From positions 4,899 through 68,898 of the forward strand of contig JBIOTN010000067.1 in the NCBI GenBank assembly GCA_044866005.1: a stretch of DNA of 64,000 nt, in the 5' to 3' direction. Both the position numbers and the translations under genes were made by a program. Within the stretch, counting starts at the first letter, position 1; every line of letters begins with the position of its first letter. The DNA is from Candidatus Rokuibacteriota bacterium (GTDB taxonomy: Bacteria > Methylomirabilota > Methylomirabilia > Rokubacteriales > DASRDR01). The notes under the pieces are model-generated. The model saw nothing but the letters and a program-made list of their open reading frames with translations, had not been told where the DNA came from and made no database searches. This document shows, one piece after another, positions 35,084-47,875 of the stretch.

Positions 35084-35105
35084 GCCGCCTCACAGGGAGA
35101 CGACG

Positions 35106-35410
35106 CATGCGACGTGTCGCCGGACTCATGGCGGTGCTGCTTCTGATGGCGTGGCTCACCGTGCCTGTCACCGCCTTCGCGGCGACCAAGGTCGCCGTGA
35201 TCGAGGTCAAGGGGATGGTCTGTCAGGCCTGACCCTTCTCGGTCAAGACAGCCTTGGAGAGGCTGCCGGGGGTGAGCCGAGCTGACGTGAGCCTCGAGAA
35301 GGCGGAGGCTCGGGTCGAGTTCGACGACGCGAAGATCTCGGCCGACAAGCTGGCCGCGGCCGTCGACCGGCTGGGCTTCCGCGCTCGGGTGCTCGCCGTC
35401 GAGCCAGGGG
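35106..35410 (+). CDS. MerP/CopZ-like periplasmic HMA-domain protein with GMVCQA-[TGA]-P (CxxU). The signal peptide is in a different frame (+1 indel near 35160). Candidate selenoprotein or pseudogene.
   Basis: ATG 35106 with AGGGAGA RBS encodes MRRVAGLMAVLLLMAWLT. The HMA domain is in the next frame from 35161. TGA at 35230-35232; hairpin 16 nt downstream. Confidence 0.5.
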
Positions 35411-35416
35411 GGTAGC

Positions 35417-40271: not shown

Positions 40272-40820
40272 GTGCGCGTGCAGCGGATTGCAGGCGGTCG
40301 GCCACACGTGGGGCTCGTCCTCGCGTTGCTCGTCTCCGTCTCGCCCGCGACGGTGTCGGATGCGACCGACGTCCGGCCGGCCGTCGGGCATCGCGCGCCC
40401 GATTTCGTCCTCCGCGATCCGGACGGCCAGCCGGTCGAGCTCTCCCGGATCCTCGGCGAGCACGCCGTCCTCCTCAACTTCTGGGCGACCTGGTGTCCGC
40501 CGTGCCGCGAGGAGATGCCGACGATGGAGCGGGCGTACCGCGACTACAAGGCGCGCGGGCTCACGGTCCTGGCCGTGAGCATCGACGCCGGCAGTGAAGC
40601 ATCCGTCAGGGCGAAAGTGAAGGCGTTCATGAAGGAGCTGAAGCTCACGTTCCCGGCCGTGCTGGACGTCGAGGGCGAGGTCGTGCGCCGCTACCGGCTG
40701 CGCGGCCTCCCCACGACGTTCCTGATCGACCGGACGGGCATGATTCGATCGGAGGAGCTCGGGTTCCGGGACTGGAGCGATGCCGCGGCGCGAAGGAAGC
40801 TGGACGCCCTGCTGAAATGA
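40272..40820 (+). CDS. TlpA/ResA-family periplasmic thiol:disulfide oxidoreductase (Cys form, WCPPC)
   Basis: GTG start; signal/anchor; [13 protein letters not shown]. Confidence 0.8.
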   Translation: [182 protein letters not shown]

Positions 40821-40830
40821 GTCCCCGCCC

Positions 40831-41598
40831 ATGGCGCTGATTCACGAGCTGATGCGGAGCTGGTACCTGGTGCTGAGCCGGTTGAGCGCCGCGCTCACCG
40901 TCCCGGTGAGCGACCTCGCCGACCGGATCGAGCTCCCGCTCCTCACGGTGCTGCTCTTCGGCGTGGTCGGCGCGATGGCGCCCTGTCAGCTCACGACGAA
41001 CCTCTCGGCGATGGCCTACGTCGGGAGCCGCGCCGGCGAGGGCCGGCCCTGGCGCGAGACGCTCGCCTACCTCGCGGGGAAGGCCCTCGTCTACACGCTG
41101 GTCGGCGCCGCCGTCTTCGCGGTCGGCCGGGAGCTCCAGGCGGCGGCCATTCCCGTGGCCATGGCGGCGCGAAAGGCGCTCGGGCCCCTCATGATCCTCA
41201 TCGGCCTGGGGCTGCTGGGGCTCTACCGGCTGCGCGGCTCGCTCGGCGGTCGGCTCTCCGCCTGGCTGCGGACCCGGGCACCGCAGCGCGGCGCGTGGGG
41301 CGCCTTCCTGCTCGGCGTGGCCTTTGCCGGGAGCTTCTGTCCCACGCTCTTCTGGCTCTTCTTCGGCCTGACGATCCCGCTGGCCCTGCGGAGCGCGGCC
41401 GGGTGGAGCTTCCCGGCGGTCTTCGCGGCCGGCACCACGCTGCCCCTCGTCGCGTTCGCCGGGCTGCTCGCGCTGGGGCGCGAGGCCGGCGGGCTGGTCG
41501 AGCGCCTCCAGCGCTCCCACGGGCTCGTGCACCGGATGGCGGGGGTGGTGATCATCCTGGCGGGGATCAACGACACGCTGACGTACTGGGCGCTCTGA
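40831..41598 (+). CDS. CcdA/DsbD-family transmembrane electron transporter
   Basis: Two conserved Cys (MAPCQL, SFCPT). Confidence 0.8.
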   Translation: MALIHELMRSWYLVLSRLSAALTVPVSDLADRIELPLLTVLLFGVVGAMAPCQLTTNLSAMAYVGSRAGEGRPWRETLAYLAGKALVYTLVGAAVFAVGRELQAAAIPVAMAARKALGPLMILIGLGLLGLYRLRGSLGGRLSAWLRTRAPQRGAWGAFLLGVAFAGSFCPTLFWLFFGLTIPLALRSAAGWSFPAVFAAGTTLPLVAFAGLLALGREAGGLVERLQRSHGLVHRMAGVVIILAGINDTLTYWAL

Positions 41599-42820: not shown

Positions 42821-42836
42821 CCAACGGGAGGAAGAC

Positions 42837-43739
42837 GTGCGAAGACGCATACTGAGCTGGTTTCGGGTCGTAGGAGCGGGGGCGGCGCTGCTCGGGGCGA
42901 CAGGGCTTGCGTCCGCCGCCTCGCAGCATCCTGGCACGGCGAGCTCGACGTTCGAGCATGTCCACGCCCTGGCGATGGACGCCGAGGGCCGGACGCTCTG
43001 GCTCGGGACTCACGCCGGGCTCTTCCGGACCGAAGGCGGGGGACGGTCGTGGGAGCCGGTGGCGCTGCCTGTGCCGGCGGGCCACGCCGACATCATGACG
43101 GTGACCACCGACCCGGGCGATTCCCGGGTGCTCTACGCCGCCACGCACGATGCCGGGGTCTTCAAGAGCGTGGACGGCGGGGCGACGTGGAAAGCCGTGA
43201 ACGCCGGCCTCGGCGGGCTGGACGTCCACGGGCTCGCCGTCGACCCGAACACGCCGTCGAAGCTCCACGCCGCCGTGCGGGACAAGGGCGAGGGGATCTA
43301 TCGGAGCACCGATGGCGGCGGCAAGTGGACGCGCGTGGACGATGGACCCGGCGGCGAGGTCAAGGTCCTGGCCTCGGTCAACATGCCGACGGGGATGGGC
43401 GGCATCTGGCTGTACGCGGGCACGGCCGAGGGGCTTCAGCGGAACCCCGACTGTTTCTGAGGGTGGAAGCTCATGGCGGGCGGTCTGCCCGCCGGAAAGA
43501 CGGTGAACGGCTTCGCGGTGGATCCCACCAATCCGCGCCTGATGTACGTCGCGATGCGGGACGGCCTCTTCCGCAGCACGGATGGCGGCGAGAGCTGGAA
43601 GCCGGTAGGTAAGGGGCTCCGGGACATGGCGGTCGTGGTCGTGAACCCGAAGCGGCCGGCCGAGGTCTACGCGGCGACGACCGATGGGATGATCTACCGG
43701 AGCGCCGACGGAGGAACCACGTGGGAACGCCGGAAGTGA
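42837..43739 (+). CDS. Secreted BNR/Ycf48-like beta-propeller protein interrupted by an in-frame TGA (43458-43460)
   Basis: ORFs 42837-43460 and 43473-43739 are in the same frame. SxDGGxxW repeats lie on both sides of the TGA, and a 7-bp hairpin with a GGUCU loop sits 15 nt after it. Confidence 0.5.
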
Positions 43740-45265
43740 CGACGCTGTCGCGGCGGGACTTCCTCCGCCTGTCGGGCGGGGCCGGGGTCGGCGCCGTGGC
43801 CTTCTCGCTCGGCGGCGGCGTGCTCTCCCGCGCGGGCGCCGCGCCGGCCGGCGGGCGGGGCGTCCGGGAGATCCGGCTCGAGGCGAGCGACCTCACGTGG
43901 GAGCTCGCACCGGGGAAGCGCGTCAAGGCCATGGCCTACGGCGGCCAGGTCCCGGGGCCGGAGCTGCGGGTCAAGGAAGGCGAGCGCGTGCGCGTCATCC
44001 TGACGAACCGCCTCGCCGAGCCGACGACGATCCACTGGCACGGGGTGGACGTCCCGAACGCCATGGATGGCGTGCCGGCGGTCACGCAGAAGCCGGTGCC
44101 GCCCGGCGAGAGCTTCGTCTACGAGTTCGAGGCGCGGCCCGCCGGGACGCGCTGGTACCACACGCACGCCGACGAGCATCGGCAGCTGGACCTCGGTCTC
44201 GCGGCGCCGTTGATCATCGAGCCGGCGACCGCCGAGCCCTTCCCCTTCGACCGCGAGTACACGCTCGTCCTCGACGACTGGGCGACCGGGACGGGTCCGG
44301 CATTGCCGCCGACGCGCGAGGGGATCGCCGGCGCGCGCGGCGGCATGGGCGGGATGATGGGCCGAATGGGCGGCGGCATGGGCCGCATGATGGAAGGGAT
44401 GATGGGCCGGGGCGGCATGGGCGGGATGATGGGCGGCCAGATGTCGGGACGCGGGCACGAGCCGGCCTACGACACGATGACGATCAACGGCAAGGCCTAC
44501 CCGGCGACGACCCCGCTCACCGTGCGGAAGGGCGAGCGGGTCCGCCTGCGGCTGATCAACGCCAGCGCCGACCACACGCACGTGATCCGGCTCGCCGGCC
44601 ACCGCCTCCGGGTCACCCACACCGACGGCAATCCGCTCGTCCAGCCGGTCGAGGTGGACGCGATCCCGATCGCGCCCAGCGAGCGCTACGACGTCCTGTT
44701 CGTGGCCGATCGGCCGGGCGCGTGGTTCCTCCACTGTGTGCAGACCGGTCACCCGGGCGCGGGCGAGCAGGTCGCCGTGGTGTACGAGGGGCACGAGGGC
44801 GAGAGACCCGACCCGCCGGCCGGGGGCGTGGCCGGGCTCGACCTCTGGCAGTACGGGCTCGGCCGGGGCCGGGACGTGCTGCCGCGCGCGTGGGGGGGCG
44901 AGCGCGCGTTCGACCTCCTGCTGAGCGGCGGCATGATGGGCTCGGACGCCTGGACGATCAACGGCAAGCAGTACCCGCGCACGGATCCACTGCGCGTCCG
45001 GAAGGGCGACCGGGTCCGCGTCCGGTTCGAGAACCACAGCATGGAGGCGCACCCGATGCACCTCCACGGGCAGTCGTTCAAGGTCCTCGCCGTCAACGGC
45101 GCCCGGTACGCGGCCCCCATCGTGAAGGACAGCGTGGACGTGGACGCTCACATGGGCTCGGTCGTCGTCGAGTTCACCGCCCACAACCCCGGCGACTGGT
45201 TCCTCCACTGCCACAAGCCCATGCACATGGAGGGCGGCATGATCACCCTCGCCCAGATCGCCTGA
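43721..45265 (+). CDS. Multicopper oxidase (CopA/CueO-like) with Tat signal and Met/Gly-rich insert
   Basis: RRDFL; HWHG, HTH, HCH..H copper ligands. Confidence 0.9.
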   Translation: MGTPEVTTLSRRDFLRLSGGAGVGAVAFSLGGGVLSRAGAAPAGGRGVREIRLEASDLTWELAPGKRVKAMAYGGQVPGPELRVKEGERVRVILTNRLAEPTTIHWHGVDVPNAMDGVPAVTQKPVPPGESFVYEFEARPAGTRWYHTHADEHRQLDLGLAAPLIIEPATAEPFPFDREYTLVLDDWATGTGPALPPTREGIAGARGGMGGMMGRMGGGMGRMMEGMMGRGGMGGMMGGQMSGRGHEPAYDTMTINGKAYPATTPLTVRKGERVRLRLINASADHTHVIRLAGHRLRVTHTDGNPLVQPVEVDAIPIAPSERYDVLFVADRPGAWFLHCVQTGHPGAGEQVAVVYEGHEGERPDPPAGGVAGLDLWQYGLGRGRDVLPRAWGGERAFDLLLSGGMMGSDAWTINGKQYPRTDPLRVRKGDRVRVRFENHSMEAHPMHLHGQSFKVLAVNGARYAAPIVKDSVDVDAHMGSVVVEFTAHNPGDWFLHCHKPMHMEGGMITLAQIA

Positions 45266-45338: not shown

Positions 45339-45914
45339 GTGAACCTGTCACGCTGGGGTTGGGGTTCCCGCGCCTCCCGGCTCGGATTGTTGGTGCTGGT
45401 GGGCCTGGCGGCGCCGGCGCTCGCGGCCTCGGGGCCCGGCGACGCGCCCAGGGACCCCTTCGACACCATGGGCGTGCACCGTCCGGCGGAGCCGGCGCCG
45501 GCTCCGGATCTGGCCTTCCGGTCGCTGGACGGTCGCGAGGCGCGCCTGCGCGACCTCCGGGGCAAGGTGGTCCTCCTCGGTTTGTTCCGGACCGACTGAC
45601 CCAACTGCCGGCGGGAGGCTCCCGCCAAGGCGGCGCTGTATCGGGCGTTCCGGGCAAAGGGACTGGAAGTCGTGGGACTCGACCTGGGGGAATCGGCGGA
45701 GATGGTCCGAGCCTTCGCGAGAGAGTTCCAGGTGACGTTCCCCATGTGGCTCGACCCCGCGGGCCAGAGTCCGGCGGCCCTCGGCGTCTACGGGCATCCC
45801 AACACGATCGTCATCGACCGCGAGGGCCGCATCGTCGGCCGCGTCCGGGGCGAGCGTGACTGGGGCACCGACGACGCCCGACGTCTGGTCGAGGTCCTGT
45901 TGAGCCGCCGATGA
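45339..45914 (+). CDS. TlpA/redoxin-family periplasmic oxidoreductase with D-[TGA]-PNC (UxxC); candidate selenoprotein
   Basis: ORFs 45339-45599 and 45672-45914 are in the same frame. GKVVLLGLFRTD-U-PNCRREAP aligns with [21 protein letters not shown] of the Cys paralogue at 40272. Hairpin 10 nt after the TGA. Confidence 0.6.
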
Positions 45915-46651
45915 CCCGGAAAACGGGGCTGGCCAGAATGCCGCGAGCGGCGTGGCTCGCCGGCCTCGTCGTCCTGCACGCCGCCGTCGCCGCCGTGGCG
46001 ACGTGGATGGCGGTCACCGGGCAATGGCCCCGCGCGCTGGGGCTCGGAGCGGCCGGCGAGTCCACGCCGGCGACCCTGGAGACGCTCGGCCGGTACGGCG
46101 AACTGCCGGACTTCCGGCTGACCGAGCGGAGCGGCGACAGTGTGAGCCGGGCCGACCTGCTCGGGAAGGTCTGGGTGGCGAACTTCGTCTACACGCAGTG
46201 CACCGAGACGTGCCCGCTGCAGACGGCCGAGATCGCGCGACTCCAGGCCGAGTTCGTGGGGGAGGCGGACTTCCGGCTCGTCTCGATCACCGTGGACCCC
46301 GAGCGGGATGACACGGCGGCCCTGTCGCGCTACGCGGAGCGCTACGGAGCGGACAGGCAGCGCTGGCTGTTCCTCACCGGGGACAAACGCGCGATCTACC
46401 GCCTCGCCAAGGACGGCTTCCGCCTGGGCGTCGTCGATCCCGACGACCCCGGAGCGAGCCAGACGAGCCTTCTCCACTCCTTCTCACCGGCCGCGGCGTG
46501 GGCGACCCACGGCTCCCAGGGCCTGATCATGCACAGCTCCCGGTTGGTGGTCGTGGACCGGACCGCGACGATCCGCGCCTATCACCTCCCCGACGACCCG
46601 CAATCGCTCGCTCGTCTCCGGCGGAACGTGCGGAGCGTGCTCCACCCGTGA
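45911..46651 (+). CDS. SCO1/SenC-family copper chaperone
   Basis: YTQCTETCP CxxxC; ATGA overlap with the previous gene. Confidence 0.8.
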   Translation: MTRKTGLARMPRAAWLAGLVVLHAAVAAVATWMAVTGQWPRALGLGAAGESTPATLETLGRYGELPDFRLTERSGDSVSRADLLGKVWVANFVYTQCTETCPLQTAEIARLQAEFVGEADFRLVSITVDPERDDTAALSRYAERYGADRQRWLFLTGDKRAIYRLAKDGFRLGVVDPDDPGASQTSLLHSFSPAAAWATHGSQGLIMHSSRLVVVDRTATIRAYHLPDDPQSLARLRRNVRSVLHP

Positions 46652-46784: not shown

Positions 46785-47369
46785 ATGAGGTCGCCGATGC
46801 CTCGCCTCGGAAAGTACGCCATGGTGCTCGTCCCGGCCGTCGGCCTGATCGGGCTCCTCGCCTATGGCTTTAGCCGGGACCCCCGCGACATCCGCTCGCC
46901 GCTCCTCGGGCGCCCCGCCCCGCCGCTGTCGCTGACGCTCTTCGACGGCAGCCGGTTCGTCCTGGCCCAGCAGGCGGACAAGGTCGTCGTCGTGAACTTC
47001 TGGGCGTCCTGGTGCCTGCCGTGCCGGGACGAGGCGCCGCTCCTCGAGGCCGCCTGGGTCGCCTACCGGGAGCGCGGGGTCGTCGTGGTCGGGGTAAACT
47101 TTCAGGACGCGGAGCCCGCCGCGCGCGCCTTCCTCGGTGAGTTCGGCCTGACGTACCCGAACGGGCCCGACGCCGGTGGGCGGATCGCGATCGGCTACGG
47201 CGTCTACGGGATCCCCGAGCTGTTCGTCATCGGGCGGGACGGGCGGATCGCGTACAAGCACATCGGCGCGATCGGGGGGACTGTGCTCGTGGCGAAGGTC
47301 GAAGAGGCCCTCCGCGGCACGGTCAGCGCGAGCGAGGGGCGGAGCGGGCGCTATCAACCGATCCGGTGA
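46785..47369 (+). CDS. DsbE/CcmG-like thiol:disulfide oxidoreductase
   Basis: NFWASWCLPCRDE. Confidence 0.8.
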   Translation: MRSPMPRLGKYAMVLVPAVGLIGLLAYGFSRDPRDIRSPLLGRPAPPLSLTLFDGSRFVLAQQADKVVVVNFWASWCLPCRDEAPLLEAAWVAYRERGVVVVGVNFQDAEPAARAFLGEFGLTYPNGPDAGGRIAIGYGVYGIPELFVIGRDGRIAYKHIGAIGGTVLVAKVEEALRGTVSASEGRSGRYQPIR

Positions 47370-47386: not shown

Positions 47387-47875
47387 GTGTCGCAGGACGA
47401 TCGGAACGTCGAGCGATCGCGCATCACGCTGCTGGCCGGAGGCCTCGCCCTGGCGCTCACCCTGGCGACCCGGCGGGAATCTCGCGCGGCGCCAACGCCC
47501 TTTCCCGAGGTCATGGTCTACAAGACCCCGACCTGACGCTGCTGCGACGCGTGGGTGGGGCACCTGCGCCAGCACGGGTTTTCGGTGACGGTCGAGAATC
47601 GCACGGACCTCCGGCCGATCAAGGCGAAGCACGCGGTGCCGGCCGAGCTCCAGACCTGTCACACGGCGCTCGTCGGCGGCTACGTCGTGGAAGGGCACGT
47701 GCCGGCCGACCTGATCGTCCGCCTGCTCCGCGAGCGGTCGCCGGTGGCCGGCCTCGCCGTCCCCGGGATGCCGGTCGGGTCGCCCGGGATGGAAGTGCCG
47801 GGGAGCCCGGCGGCCAAATATCAGGTCTTCAGCTTCGACCGGAGCGGCAAGACGACGGTGTTCGCGAGCCGGTGA
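47387..47875 (+). CDS. DUF411/CopG-family periplasmic copper-binding protein with T-[TGA]-RCC (UxCC in place of CxCC); candidate selenoprotein
   Basis: GTG start after AAAGGAG. Signal peptide, then MVYKTPT-U-RCCDAW. The C-terminal half (ORF 47555-47875) is in frame. A 9-bp hairpin lies 12 nt after the TGA. Confidence 0.6.

What the first reader, a model, noticed from the sequence alone, without database searches (positions are those of the whole stretch)
42837..43739. BNR/Ycf48-like beta-propeller protein split by an in-frame TGA followed by a strong fdhF-like hairpin
The two ORFs carry three plus two SxDGGxxW blades and sit in the same frame, separated only by TGA (...GLQRNPDCF-[TGA]-GWKLMAGG...). 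Together they make a normal-sized (about 300 aa) propeller.

Fifteen nucleotides after the TGA there is a perfect 7-bp stem GGCGGGC/GCCCGCC with loop GGUCU, the same loop sequence as the E. coli fdhF SECIS apex.

No redox motif is known in this family apart from the adjacent Cys (C-F-U), so Sec insertion is less certain than for the other five genes. It may be plain readthrough or a disrupted gene.
Basis: partly seen in the sequence, partly recalled or inferred. Interest (0 to 1): 0.5.

Follow-up and report, generated by a model that had tools for sequence, protein, structure and literature searches.

The report
Uncatalogued selenocysteine beta-propeller in copper island
The "split" gene is one intact gene for an exported six-bladed propeller protein whose in-frame TGA almost certainly encodes selenocysteine; this protein family is widespread in soil and groundwater bacteria, sits in copper-handling gene clusters, and is absent from the current catalogue of bacterial selenoproteins.

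Summary
ORF 42837-43460 and its same-frame continuation to 43739 are separated only by TGA (43458-60), and a 7-bp hairpin with loop GGUCU follows at 43475-43493.

The cautious reading (readthrough or disrupted gene) is replaced by a much stronger one: a conserved selenoprotein gene.
- All 39 close homologous loci from genome bins labelled with 10 or more lineages, plus 53 metagenome contigs, carry TGA at exactly this codon (D-C-F-TGA-G-W).
- Each locus that can be read to the end continues for 89-95 in-frame codons.
- Two loci have TGA at the Cys codon as well (U-F-U).
- Homologues on alphaproteobacterial metal-resistance plasmids have Cys there (D-C-F-C-G-W) and no such hairpin.
- The hairpin is kept in 86 sequences with compensatory changes. 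Its five degenerate codons are frozen at synonymous sites.
- It meets all four geometric criteria of the bacterial SECIS model.

Sec lies in the remodelled fourth Asp-box of a six-bladed BNR propeller with a signal peptide. The gene is translationally coupled to a Tat-exported multicopper oxidase and sits among SCO1, TlpA-like redoxins and DsbD_2. Three neighbouring genes (TlpA-like, HMA, DUF411) also carry conserved in-frame TGA.

The biochemical role (Cu(I) ligand or redox pair) is inferred. The family is not among the 119 families of a 2026 review, and no NCBIfam model reaches its cut-off.

The parts
42826..42832 (+). Shine-Dalgarno-like GGGAGGA, 4 nt upstream of the GTG start
   Evidence: Read directly from the sequence.
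42837..43739 (+). Complete selenoprotein CDS: 300 residues plus stop, a six-bladed BNR/Asp-box beta-propeller with Sec at residue 208
   Evidence: Translation. Pfam BNR, Sortilin-Vps10 and PSII_BNR. The same open frame with TGA at the same codon in 39 genome loci.
42837..42917 (+). Predicted Sec-type signal peptide (MRRRILSWFRVVGAGAALLGATGLASA|AS), implying a periplasmic product
   Evidence: Inference from the sequence (basic n-region, hydrophobic core, A-S-A). Homologues have equivalent N-termini. AF2 models the N-terminus of P0002 as a lone helix outside the propeller. No signal-peptide predictor was available.
43386..43403 (+). P-T-G-M-G-G loop (strand 1-2 loop of blade 4), highly conserved in both Sec and Cys forms; candidate partner of the C-x-U site
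   Evidence: Alignments A1 and A5. Location on the same face as the Asp-box is inferred from beta-meander topology, not measured.
43443..43466 (+). Remodelled fourth Asp-box N-P-D-C-F-U-G-W (aa 203-210)
   Evidence: Lies at the periodic Asp-box position. DSSP pattern (strand, 6-residue turn, short strand) is identical to the canonical Asp-boxes in the AF2 model.
43452..43454 (+). Cys206 codon (TGT), partner of Sec; it is itself TGA in L035 and L038 (U-F-U)
43458..43460 (+). Sec codon TGA (residue 208)
   Evidence: TGA in 40 of 40 genome-derived sequences and 53 metagenome contigs. TGC/TGT in the Cys-form homologues.
43475..43493 (+). Bacterial SECIS upper stem-loop: 7-bp stem, 5-nt loop GGUCU, loop starting 21 nt after UGA
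   Evidence: MFE -16.4; covariation; synonymous-site freezing; model criteria.
43721..45265 (+). Multicopper oxidase with Tat signal (SRRDFLR) and Met-rich insert; its start overlaps the end of the propeller gene by 19 nt
   Evidence: Pfam Cu-oxidase, Cu-oxidase_2 and Cu-oxidase_3. Present in 19 of 39 Sec loci and immediately downstream in 15 of the 31 loci with enough sequence.
45339..45914 (+). TlpA/redoxin-like gene with in-frame TGA at 45597-99 (U-P-N-C) and hairpin GGCGGGA-GGC-UCCCGCC downstream
   Evidence: N- and C-terminal parts lie adjacent in the same frame in related loci.
45911..46651 (+). SCO1/SenC copper chaperone
   Evidence: Pfam. Present in 17 of 39 Sec loci.
40272..40820 (+). 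TlpA-like thiol:disulfide reductase (WCPPC)
   Evidence: Pfam AhpC-TSA and Redoxin.
40831..41598 (+). DsbD_2/CcdA-like membrane electron transporter
   Evidence: Pfam DsbD_2. Present in 16 of 39 Sec loci.
46785..47369 (+). Second TlpA/CcmG-like redoxin (WCLPC)
   Evidence: Pfam.

Best explanation
SHOWN BY COMPARATIVE SEQUENCE EVIDENCE: window 42837-43739 is a single functional gene. Its UGA at 43458-60 is recoded as selenocysteine by the standard bacterial mechanism, in which SelB with Sec-tRNA(Sec) is recruited by a SECIS hairpin inside the coding sequence, here at 43475-93.

The product is a roughly 300-aa protein, about 270 aa mature, exported to the periplasm. It is a six-bladed BNR/Asp-box beta-propeller. 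The turn of the fourth Asp-box has been rebuilt from S-x-D-G-G-x-x-W into N-P-D-C-F-U-G-W. This places a Cys and a Sec two residues apart on an exposed hairpin turn.

INFERRED FROM CONSERVED GENE CONTEXT AND MOTIF CHEMISTRY: the C-x-U pair is the working site of a periplasmic copper-handling or thiol-redox module. It is kept reduced by the neighbouring TlpA-like reductases with electrons from the DsbD_2/CcdA membrane protein. It either binds Cu(I) as a thiolate-selenolate chelate, possibly with the conserved Met of the adjacent P-T-G-M-G-G loop, and passes it to the co-translated multicopper oxidase or to SCO1, or it cycles through a selenenylsulfide. Sec rather than Cys would give a lower pKa, tighter binding of soft metals and resistance to irreversible over-oxidation in a copper-stressed periplasm.
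For: (1) Codon conservation.
- TGA sits at exactly this codon in all 39 close loci (55-74% identity), from bins labelled Rokuibacteriota, Binatia, Tectomicrobia, Deltaproteobacteria, Nitrospinota, Acidiferrales, Limnocylindria, Vicinamibacterales and others.
- It is also there in 53 of the first 120 metagenome pattern matches.
- 115 of the 120 best database proteins end in ...DCF. 53 separate ORFs of about 87 aa start at the following V/M-GGLP. Gene callers therefore split this gene systematically.

(2) Translation continues past the TGA.
- In every locus that can be read to the end, 89-95 further in-frame codons end just after the last Asp-box.
- The Gly and Trp codons between the UGA and the only possible restart codon are conserved as amino acids while varying synonymously (GGG 28, GGC 6, GGA 2, GGT 1; W replaced by F in two).

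(3) Sec/Cys pair. Cys-form homologues carry D-C-F-C-G-W.
- Examples: Sinorhizobium sp. M14 pSinB WP_173238108, Jiella pelagia WP_139802388, Chelativorans alearense, P0272 and P0377.
- Two lineages (L035, L038) have TGA at the Cys codon as well, giving U-F-U.

(4) SECIS.
- The six inner pairs are 95-100% paired in 86 distinct sequences.
- 5 of 7 pairs show compensatory double changes.
- Covariation exceeds 500 of 500 shuffles, and shifted registers fall to about 40% paired.
- Codon entropy of the five 4/6-fold codons in the hairpin (V, G, G, L, P) is 0-0.41 bit. The 61 other conserved degenerate codons of the same gene average 1.52 bit, minimum 0.72. This includes the unpaired loop position GGT.
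- All four criteria of the bSECIS model quoted in PMC13188914 are met: 5-nt loop, 7-bp stem, GG at the loop start, spacing 21 nt (18 in the family consensus, as in fdhF), MFE -16.4 kcal/mol.
- Cys-form genes have no such hairpin.
- A TTA variant (P0002) keeps an intact hairpin on a 1.8-kb contig, so it is an error or a very recent change.

(5) Sec use in the same organisms. The same island holds three more conserved in-frame TGA genes with classic motifs.
- TlpA-like U-x-x-C at 45597.
- HMA C-x-x-U at 35230.
- DUF411 U-x-C-C at 47534.
- The HMA and DUF411 stops recur at the same site in related loci. For the TlpA-like gene the N- and C-terminal parts lie adjacent in the same frame in related loci.

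(6) Function context.
- 35 of 39 Sec loci have a multicopper oxidase, SCO1, a TlpA-like redoxin or DsbD_2 within 4 kb.
- The oxidase lies immediately downstream in 15 of 31.
- The Cys forms lie in DsbE-TlpA-[propeller]-DUF1573-SCO-[second propeller]-DsbA-CcdA clusters. These are next to a multicopper oxidase, PCuAC, a P-type ATPase and CusA.

(7) Fold. AF2 model of the 63%-identical P0002: pLDDT 87, six blades of four strands. The best structural matches are BNR propellers.
Against: - No direct evidence of selenium in the protein.
- No selA, selB, selC or selD was found in the window: no tRNA at all and no Rfam hit.
- Hairpin potential is partly intrinsic to the peptide, because Gly GGN and Pro CCN codons are complementary. 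One motif-less homologue (L056, P-F-R) has an even stronger hairpin with a different loop at the same place. The hairpin alone is therefore not diagnostic.
- The stem is so conserved that covariation rests on few independent events.
- The function is inferred only from neighbours and motif chemistry. No coordinates were available to measure Cys-Sec-Met distances.
- About half of the loci show no oxidase within reach, and many are short contigs.
- In Jiella the Cys-form cluster also adjoins mer genes, so the metal could be another soft metal.
- Taxon labels of the bins may include mis-binned contigs.
Confidence: 0.87

Rival explanations
1. Split gene. Translation stops at UGA and restarts at the GUG/AUG four to five codons downstream, giving a 207-aa and an 88-aa polypeptide that assemble into a split propeller.
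For: - Gene callers do call both halves. 53 ORFs of about 87 aa start at V/M-GGLP.
- The purine-rich GGGUGGAAG between the stop and GUG could act as a weak ribosome-binding site (read from the sequence).
Against: - The Gly-Trp residues between the stop and the restart codon are under amino-acid-level selection.
- The Trp is the structural Trp of the Asp-box, and its Asp lies before the stop.
- Cys-form homologues are continuous proteins with Cys at the stop position.
- The putative restart codon is buried in the 5' arm of the conserved hairpin.
- U-F-U variants would need two stops.
Confidence: 0.04
2. Hairpin-stimulated readthrough by a near-cognate or suppressor tRNA inserts Trp, Cys or Arg rather than selenocysteine.
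For: Downstream structures can promote UGA readthrough. No Sec machinery was seen in the 64-kb window.
Against: - The element matches the SelB-type bSECIS in geometry and even in loop sequence and spacing to E. coli fdhF.
- The unpaired loop bases are frozen at synonymous sites.
- The position alternates with Cys, the hallmark of Sec.
- Three other genes in the island have UGA in U-x-x-C, C-x-x-U or U-x-C-C motifs.
- UGA is the ordinary stop of this and neighbouring genes.
Confidence: 0.05
3. Pseudogene or assembly artefact: a disrupted BNR gene.
For: Two adjacent same-frame ORFs are what a nonsense mutation would produce. One homologue (P0002) has TTA instead of TGA.
Against: - The identical 'mutation' is present in 39 of 39 loci across many lineages and in 53 metagenome contigs.
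- There is no further stop or frameshift, and protein-level conservation is comparable on both sides.
Confidence: 0.01
4. A genuine selenoprotein, but the C-x-U is a catalytic redox centre rather than a copper ligand. Candidate roles are a periplasmic thiol-disulfide or selenenylsulfide oxidoreductase or isomerase, a peroxide or persulfide reductase, or a Cu(II)-to-Cu(I) reductase acting on partner proteins.
For: - The flanking genes are dominated by TlpA/DsbE/DsbA/CcdA-type redox proteins.
- From general knowledge, C-x-C motifs form strained, reactive disulfides.
- Most catalogued selenoproteins are redox enzymes (PMC13188914).
Against: - The fold is not thioredoxin-like.
- The tightest linkage is translational coupling to a multicopper oxidase and to SCO1.
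- Co-resident Sec proteins are metal binders (HMA, DUF411).
- The two roles are not mutually exclusive.
Confidence: 0.3

Closest known systems
Bacterial selenoprotein genes with an intragenic SECIS (prototype E. coli fdhF)
   Same: - In-frame UGA followed by a coding-region stem-loop.
- Loop string GGUCU.
- 18 nt between UGA and that string in the family consensus, as in fdhF.
- Meets all the bSECIS model criteria.
- Cys homologues exist.
   Different: - The protein is unrelated to formate dehydrogenase.
- The stem is a short GC-rich 6-7 bp helix without the bulged U and long lower helix known for fdhF (from my own knowledge, not tested).
- Sec is not at a Mo/W cofactor.
BNR/Asp-box beta-propellers (GH74 xyloglucanase domains, Reut_B4987 PDB 3b7f, Ycf48 PDB 5ojr, DAIP)
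   Same: - Repeated S-x-D-x-G-x-x-W Asp-boxes, four-stranded blades and propeller fold.
- Foldseek probability 1.0, TM 0.5-0.57 normalised to a query that includes about 60 non-propeller residues.
   Different: - Six blades, not the seven of Ycf48 or the tandem propellers of GH74.
- One Asp-box is converted into a C-x-U site.
- The gene context is copper and thiol redox, not carbohydrate degradation or photosystem assembly.
- Sequence identity is 15-21%.
Cys-form homologues on alphaproteobacterial metal-resistance plasmids (annotated 'hypothetical protein', 'YCF48-related protein' or 'exo-alpha-sialidase')
   Same: - Same length and same six Asp-box periodicity.
- Same conserved block ...RVDDGP...SVN-PTGMGGIWLYAG...PDCF-[C/U]-GW.
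- Same neighbours: TlpA, SCO, CcdA, multicopper oxidase.
   Different: - Cys (TGC/TGT) instead of Sec.
- No SECIS hairpin.
- Only about 42% identical.
- Several blade histidines of the Sec form are not conserved.
- Function equally uncharacterised.
C-x-C / C-x-U metal or redox motifs in known proteins
   Same: Two chalcogen ligands two residues apart. The review lists C-x-U in rhodanese form 3, UshA-like protein, ferredoxin-thioredoxin reductase and thioredoxin-like Sec.1.
   Different: - None of those is a beta-propeller or periplasmic copper-cluster protein.
- The analogy to the Cu(I)-transferring C-x-C of the eukaryotic SOD1 chaperone CCS is from my own knowledge and is only a lead.

Membership tests
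Bacterial selenoprotein gene (Sec-UGA + bSECIS) | In-frame UGA conserved at the same codon in homologues, with conserved coding sequence downstream | tested here: met
   TGA in 40 of 40 genome-derived sequences and 53 metagenome contigs. In every locus that can be read to the end, 89-95 further in-frame codons follow.
Bacterial selenoprotein gene (Sec-UGA + bSECIS) | Homologues with Cys aligned to the UGA | tested here: met
   D-C-F-C-G-W in pSinB, Jiella, Chelativorans, P0272 and P0377.
Bacterial selenoprotein gene (Sec-UGA + bSECIS) | bSECIS geometry: 3-9 nt apical loop, 4-16 bp upper stem, G in the first two loop positions, 16-37 nt between UGA and loop, MFE <= -7.5 kcal/mol (PMC13188914, Fig. 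2A legend) | tested here: met
   5-nt loop GGUCU, 7-bp stem, spacing 21 nt (18 in the consensus), MFE -16.4.
Bacterial selenoprotein gene (Sec-UGA + bSECIS) | RNA-level selection on the hairpin, independent of the protein | tested here: met
   Synonymous codon entropy 0-0.41 bit in the hairpin versus a mean of 1.52 elsewhere. 5 of 7 pairs carry compensatory changes, and covariation exceeds 500 of 500 shuffles. The hairpin is absent in Cys forms. Caveat: a motif-less homologue also has a hairpin here.
Bacterial selenoprotein gene (Sec-UGA + bSECIS) | Host encodes SelA, SelB, SelD and tRNA-Sec | not testable with these tools
   No tRNA or Rfam hit in the 64-kb window, and the rest of the genome is not available. 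Indirect support: three other conserved UGA-containing genes lie in the same island and in related loci.
Bacterial selenoprotein gene (Sec-UGA + bSECIS) | Selenium demonstrated in the polypeptide | not testable with these tools
   Needs 75Se labelling or mass spectrometry.
Catalogued prokaryotic selenoprotein families (119 entries, Table 1 of PMC13188914, May 2026) | Family or domain listed in the catalogue | tested here: not met
   No BNR, propeller, Ycf48, WD40, sialidase or F510_1955 entry in the text or table. None in the deep-Sep paper or its supplements. No NCBIfam model above cut-off.
BNR/Asp-box beta-propeller superfamily | Repeated S-x-D-x-G-x-T-W Asp-boxes on a propeller fold | tested here: met
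   Five canonical boxes plus one modified box at regular spacing of 42-46 residues. Pfam BNR 41 bits against a cut-off of 27. AF2 gives six four-stranded blades. Foldseek hits BNR propellers.
Ycf48/HCF136 photosystem II assembly factor | Full-length match to the family model; seven-bladed propeller; photosynthetic host | tested here: not met
   NCBIfam PRK13684 scores 33 bits against a cut-off of 326. Pfam PSII_BNR scores 30.7 against 27, with its best stretch covering profile positions 26-146 of 303. The model has six blades. The context is copper and redox.
F510_1955 family glycosylhydrolase (NF045728) | Score at or above the curated cut-off | tested here: not met
   129 bits against a cut-off of 175.
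Periplasmic copper chaperone or copper-resistance accessory protein (functional class) | Binds Cu(I) and transfers it to a partner; copper phenotype on deletion | not testable with these tools
   Only guilt by association is available: translational coupling to the multicopper oxidase and conserved SCO1, TlpA and DsbD_2 neighbours.

The most novel reading that the evidence does not exclude
This is a previously undescribed, environmentally widespread selenoprotein family, and as far as the catalogue shows the first on a beta-propeller. An Asp-box turn has been converted into a Cys-x-Sec (sometimes Sec-x-Sec) site that binds Cu(I) and hands it to a co-translated multicopper oxidase or to SCO1. 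It belongs to a 'selenium-upgraded' periplasmic copper-defence island in which four unrelated copper- or thiol-handling proteins have each replaced a key Cys by Sec: the BNR propeller, an HMA/CopZ-like protein, DUF411/CopG-like protein and a TlpA-like redoxin. That would point to a general selective advantage of selenolate over thiolate chemistry under copper stress in soil and groundwater bacteria such as Rokubacteria.
Probability: 0.35. Interest if true: 0.75.

Novelty: new member of a known kind. Interest (0 to 1): 0.6.

Why it matters
- **Annotation.** Public databases truncate or split this gene throughout. 115 of the 120 best protein hits end at ...DCF, and NCBI names such as 'WD40/YVTN/BNR-like repeat-containing protein' sit on the roughly 200-aa fragments. 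Recognising the Sec codon repairs many gene models and adds a family to the bacterial selenoproteome.
- **Biology.** Most known selenoproteins are thioredoxin-fold redox enzymes. A propeller with Sec in a remodelled Asp-box, exported to the periplasm and tied to a multicopper oxidase, SCO1 and TlpA, links selenium use to copper homeostasis.
- **Testability.** The Cys-form homologues sit on plasmids of cultured alphaproteobacteria (Sinorhizobium sp. M14 pSinB, Jiella pelagia). The function of this uncharacterised but conserved component of copper-resistance clusters can therefore be tested genetically and biochemically.
- **Natural experiment.** The co-occurrence of four different Sec-for-Cys substitutions in one island shows when selenium is preferred over sulfur.

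Tried and rejected
- **Rfam** gathering-threshold scan of the window: no hit, including no bacterial SECIS families. **ARAGORN**: no tRNA, so no tRNA-Sec in the window.
- **Folding the hairpin in a 56-nt context** is not significant against shuffles (z = -1.05). The single-sequence hairpin argument was therefore dropped in favour of comparative tests.
- **Exhaustive representative search with P0002** was swamped by giant multi-repeat BNR proteins. It gave only two further single-propeller homologues (P0184, P0193, both without Cys or Sec). It was not useful for finding Cys forms.
- **Model coordinates are not exposed**, so Cys-Sec-Met distances could not be measured.
- **Six-frame scan treating TGA as sense** was useless in this GC-rich genome. 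It was replaced by a GC3-based scan.
- **P0271 has no contig on record**. Its context was obtained through the plasmid collection instead.
- **Literature searches** for a propeller/BNR selenoprotein, for BNR proteins in copper clusters and for F510_1955 gave nothing relevant.
- **Rejected readings:** pseudogene, a genome-wide UGA sense code (UGA ends this and neighbouring genes), and Ycf48 membership.
Full report
**1. The observation**

- A GTG at 42837, preceded by GGGAGGA, opens a frame that reaches TGA at 43458-60 after ...GLQRNPDCF.
- The same frame continues GWKLMAGGLPAGK... to TGA at 43737-39, giving 301 codons.
- Five canonical Asp-boxes lie at residues 65-72, 111-118, 157-164, 247-254 and 289-296.
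- The hairpin GGCGGGC-GGUCU-GCCCGCC is real, but its coordinates are 43475-81 / 43482-86 / 43487-93.
- The string GGUCU is at the apex of the E. coli fdhF SECIS. I checked my recalled fdhF sequence and it matched 100% under fdhF in 5419 genomes.

On its own the hairpin is weak evidence in this GC-rich DNA.
- In a 56-nt context z = -1.05.
- For the 23-nt element z = -3.3.
- 17 of 1270 TGA triplets in the window are followed by a stem of 7 bp or more with bSECIS-like geometry.

**2. Homologues settle the coding question**

A protein search returned more than 1700 relatives. Of the best 120, 115 end in exactly ...DCF. A second search found 53 ORFs of about 87 aa starting at the V/M of V-G-G-L-P. 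Gene callers therefore cut this gene in two everywhere.

One scan of one-genome-per-species contigs gave 49 loci.
- All 39 close ones (55-74% identity) have TGA at the same codon, D-C-F-TGA-G-W. They come from bins labelled Rokuibacteriota, Binatia, Tectomicrobia, Deltaproteobacteria, Syntrophobacteraceae, Nitrospinota, Acidiferrales, Limnocylindria, Vicinamibacterales, Beta- and Gammaproteobacteria and Actinomycetota.
- In every locus that can be read to the end, 89-95 further in-frame codons follow, ending just after the last Asp-box.
- In L035 (Tectomicrobia) and L038 (Nitrospinota) the Cys codon is TGA too, giving D-U-F-U-G-F.

- 53 of those stretches are this family; the rest are chance matches.
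- They include a second, divergent Sec subfamily...GSMNTGWLYAATP..YLSM-DCF-U-GWRxxGSLP....

The one 'full-length' close homologue, P0002, has TTA in place of TGA, with the hairpin intact, on a 1.8-kb contig. It is an error or a very recent change.

**3. Sec/Cys pair**

Homologues at about 42% identity carry Cys at the TGA position, D-C-F-C-G-W.
- They are pSinB of Sinorhizobium sp. M14 (WP_173238108), a Jiella pelagia plasmid (WP_139802388), Chelativorans alearense (WP_343036339), P0272 and P0377.
- A second propeller gene in the Jiella cluster has D-C-F-C-L-W and corresponds to the second Sec subfamily.
- Their codons are TGC or TGT. The downstream RNA has no conserved hairpin (z > 0).

A few homologues at 49-57% identity (P0005, P0010, P0013, P0017, P0184, P0193) have lost Cys and Sec together (YSR, SLG, SSR, PFR). 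Where context could be read, they sit next to unrelated genes. Distant BNR relatives (36% identity or less) have an ordinary Asp-box there.

**4. The hairpin is under RNA-level selection**

In 86 distinct sequences:
- the six inner pairs are 95-100% paired;
- 5 of 7 pairs show double compensatory changes. Examples are U-A to C-G in this window, C-G to G-C in L001, and G-C to C-G or A-U in the second subfamily;
- covariation exceeds all 500 shuffles;
- shifting the 3' arm by 1-3 columns drops pairing to about 40%.

More telling is a synonymous-site test across 37 full genes.
- The five 4/6-fold degenerate codons that build the hairpin (GTG GGC GGT CTG CCC) have codon entropies of 0-0.41 bit.
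- The 61 other equally conserved degenerate codons in the same gene average 1.52 bit, with a minimum of 0.72.
- The five lowest values of 66 are therefore exactly the hairpin codons.
- The freeze includes the unpaired third base of GGT in the loop. This argues for sequence-specific recognition and not only stability.

The element meets every criterion of the bacterial SECIS model as quoted in PMC13188914.
- Loop of 3-9 nt: 5 nt here.
- Stem of 4-16 bp: 7 bp here.
- G in the first two loop positions: GG here.
- 16-37 nt from UGA to the loop: 21 nt here, and 18 nt in the family consensus, the same as fdhF.
- MFE of -7.5 kcal/mol or lower: -16.4 here.

One caveat. Gly (GGN) and Pro (CCN) codons are complementary, so V-G-G-L-P-A/T has built-in hairpin potential. 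The motif-less homologue L056 has an even stronger stem with a CUA loop at the same place, possibly a SECIS relic. The hairpin alone is thus not diagnostic. The diagnostic combination is TGA, the frozen loop and stem, and the Cys alternation.

**5. Rival readings**

- *Pseudogene:* excluded by the conservation described above.
- *Genome-wide UGA sense code:* excluded, because UGA terminates this gene and its neighbours.
- *Stop and restart (split propeller):* unlikely.
  - The Gly and Trp between the stop and the restart codon are conserved as amino acids with synonymous variation (GGG 28, GGC 6, GGA 2, GGT 1).
  - This Trp is the structural Trp of an Asp-box whose Asp lies before the stop.
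  - The restart codon lies inside the stem.
  - Cys forms are continuous.
- *Non-Sec readthrough:* cannot be excluded without protein data. It does not explain the Cys alternation or the SelB-type element.

The same island holds three more conserved UGA genes.
- A TlpA/redoxin-like U-P-N-C at 45597.
- An exported HMA protein, G-M-V-C-Q-A-U, at 35230.
- A DUF411/CopG-like T-U-R-C-C at 47534.

The domains were confirmed. The HMA and DUF411 stops recur at the same site in related loci. For the TlpA-like gene, the N- and C-terminal parts lie adjacent in the same frame in related loci. These organisms evidently decode UGA as Sec.

**6. What the protein is**

The AF2 model of P0002 (pLDDT 87, pTM 0.78) shows six blades of four strands. 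Foldseek finds BNR propellers: GH74 domains, Reut_B4987 (3b7f), Ycf48 and DAIP.

The six Asp-box positions are evenly spaced. The fourth, residues 203-210, reads N-P-D-C-F-U-G-W instead of S-x-D-G-G-x-x-W. It has the same strand-turn-strand pattern as the others. Cys and Sec therefore replace the two residues flanking the turn apex.

The strand 1-2 loop of the same blade, P-T-G-M-G-G, together with the segment RVDDGP...SVN, is the part best conserved between Sec and Cys forms. By beta-meander topology it lies on the same face as the Asp-box. This is an inference.

The N-terminus looks like a Sec-type signal peptide (RRR, hydrophobic core, A-S-A), so the product should be periplasmic. This is also an inference.

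It is not a Ycf48 family member: six blades rather than seven, and 33 bits against a 326-bit cut-off. It does not reach the cut-off of the nearest NCBIfam model, F510_1955 (129 vs 175).

**7. Context and likely role**

The propeller gene overlaps by 19 nt the start of a multicopper oxidase that has a Tat signal and a Met-rich insert. Around them lie:
- two TlpA-like redoxins and a DsbD_2 transporter;
- a methyltransferase;
- the Sec-containing TlpA-like gene and SCO1/SenC;
- the Sec-containing DUF411.

Among the 39 Sec loci, 35 have at least one of oxidase, SCO1, TlpA-like or DsbD_2 within 4 kb. The oxidase is immediately downstream in 15 of the 31 loci with enough sequence.

The Cys forms lie in DsbE-TlpA-[propeller]-DUF1573-SCO-[second propeller]-DsbA-CcdA clusters. 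These are beside a multicopper oxidase, PCuAC, a P-type ATPase and CusA. In Jiella they also lie beside mer genes.

The best-supported mechanism is therefore a periplasmic C-x-U site, kept reduced by TlpA with DsbD_2/CcdA, that either chelates Cu(I) for the oxidase or SCO1 or cycles as a selenenylsulfide. I rate copper binding and transfer at about 0.4-0.5 and a purely redox role at about 0.3. Neither is shown.

**8. Novelty**

The May 2026 catalogue of 119 prokaryotic selenoprotein families has no BNR, propeller, Ycf48 or sialidase-like entry. The deep-Sep paper and its supplements have none either. Full-text searches found no report.

NCBI-derived records name the truncated fragments 'WD40/YVTN/BNR-like repeat-containing protein'. 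The annotation pipeline therefore does not recognise the family.

The recoding mechanism is standard. The protein family and the structural setting of Sec are new to the catalogue, so I class it as a new member of a known kind. Unindexed literature could still hold a prior description.

**9. Verdict**

| Claim | Confidence |
|---|---|
| Observation confirmed | - |
| Genuine selenoprotein gene | about 0.87-0.9 |
| Previously uncatalogued | about 0.7 |
| Copper-related function | plausible but unproven |

Interest: 0.6.

Noticed in passing
window 45339-45914 (TGA at 45597-45599): A TlpA/redoxin-like gene is split by an in-frame TGA, giving LLGLFRTD-U-PNC (U-x-x-C) at the usual CxxC position. The hairpin GGCGGGA-GGC-UCCCGCC starts 10 nt downstream. 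In L005, L023, L024 and L039 the N- and C-terminal parts lie adjacent in the same frame, as expected for a single intervening TGA. This matches the known selenoprotein type 'redoxin / Prx-like thiol:disulfide oxidoreductase'.
   Followed up: partly
window ~47400-47875 (TGA at 47534-47536): A DUF411/CopG-like periplasmic protein has TGA in the metal-binding motif (VYKTPT-U-RCC instead of C-x-C-C). A stop occupies the same position in L025, L032 and L035 (codon identity not checked). DUF411 is not in the 2026 selenoprotein catalogue table that I read, so this may be a second uncatalogued family.
   Followed up: partly
window ~35100-35415 (TGA at 35230-35232): An exported HMA (heavy-metal-associated, MerP/CopZ-like) protein has G-M-V-C-Q-A-U (C-x-x-U). 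A stop occupies the same position in L013 and L025 (codon identity not checked). Pfam HMA confirmed.
   Followed up: partly
L059, L066, L090, L094, L108, L125, L126, L169 (metagenome contigs): A second, divergent Sec-containing propeller subfamily reads ...GSMNTGWLYAATP..YLSM-DCF-U-GWRxxGSLP... Its SECIS loop is AGUUU or AGUCU. L125 has an unrelated longer hairpin at the same place. The Cys counterpart is the second BNR gene of the Jiella cluster (L053 10728-11612, D-C-F-C-L-W).
   Followed up: partly
L035 4499-4510 and L038 4592-4603: Tectomicrobia- and Nitrospinota-labelled loci have TGA at both the Cys and the Sec codon (D-U-F-U-G-F). This implies two Sec residues served by a single downstream hairpin.
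   Followed up: partly
L056 ~1340-1400 (motif-less homologue P0184): A 12-bp perfect hairpin, CCGGUGGGCGGG-CUA-CCCGCCCACCGG, lies at the position of the SECIS in a homologue that has P-F-R instead of C-F-U. It may be a relic of a lost SECIS or a by-product of complementary Gly and Pro codons.
   Followed up: no
window 43721-45265: The multicopper oxidase carries a long Met/Gly-rich insert (GGMGGMMGRMGGGMGRMMEGMMGRGGMGGMMGGQM) and a Tat signal (SRRDFLR). This is typical of CueO/PcoA-type copper-resistance oxidases.
   Followed up: no
L052 8632-9198 and L053 8572-9177: In the Cys-form plasmid clusters the propeller gene is followed by a DUF1573 protein. DUF1573 is itself listed as a selenoprotein family (UGC motif) in the 2026 review. 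I did not check whether the Sec-form loci hold a Sec-containing DUF1573.
   Followed up: no
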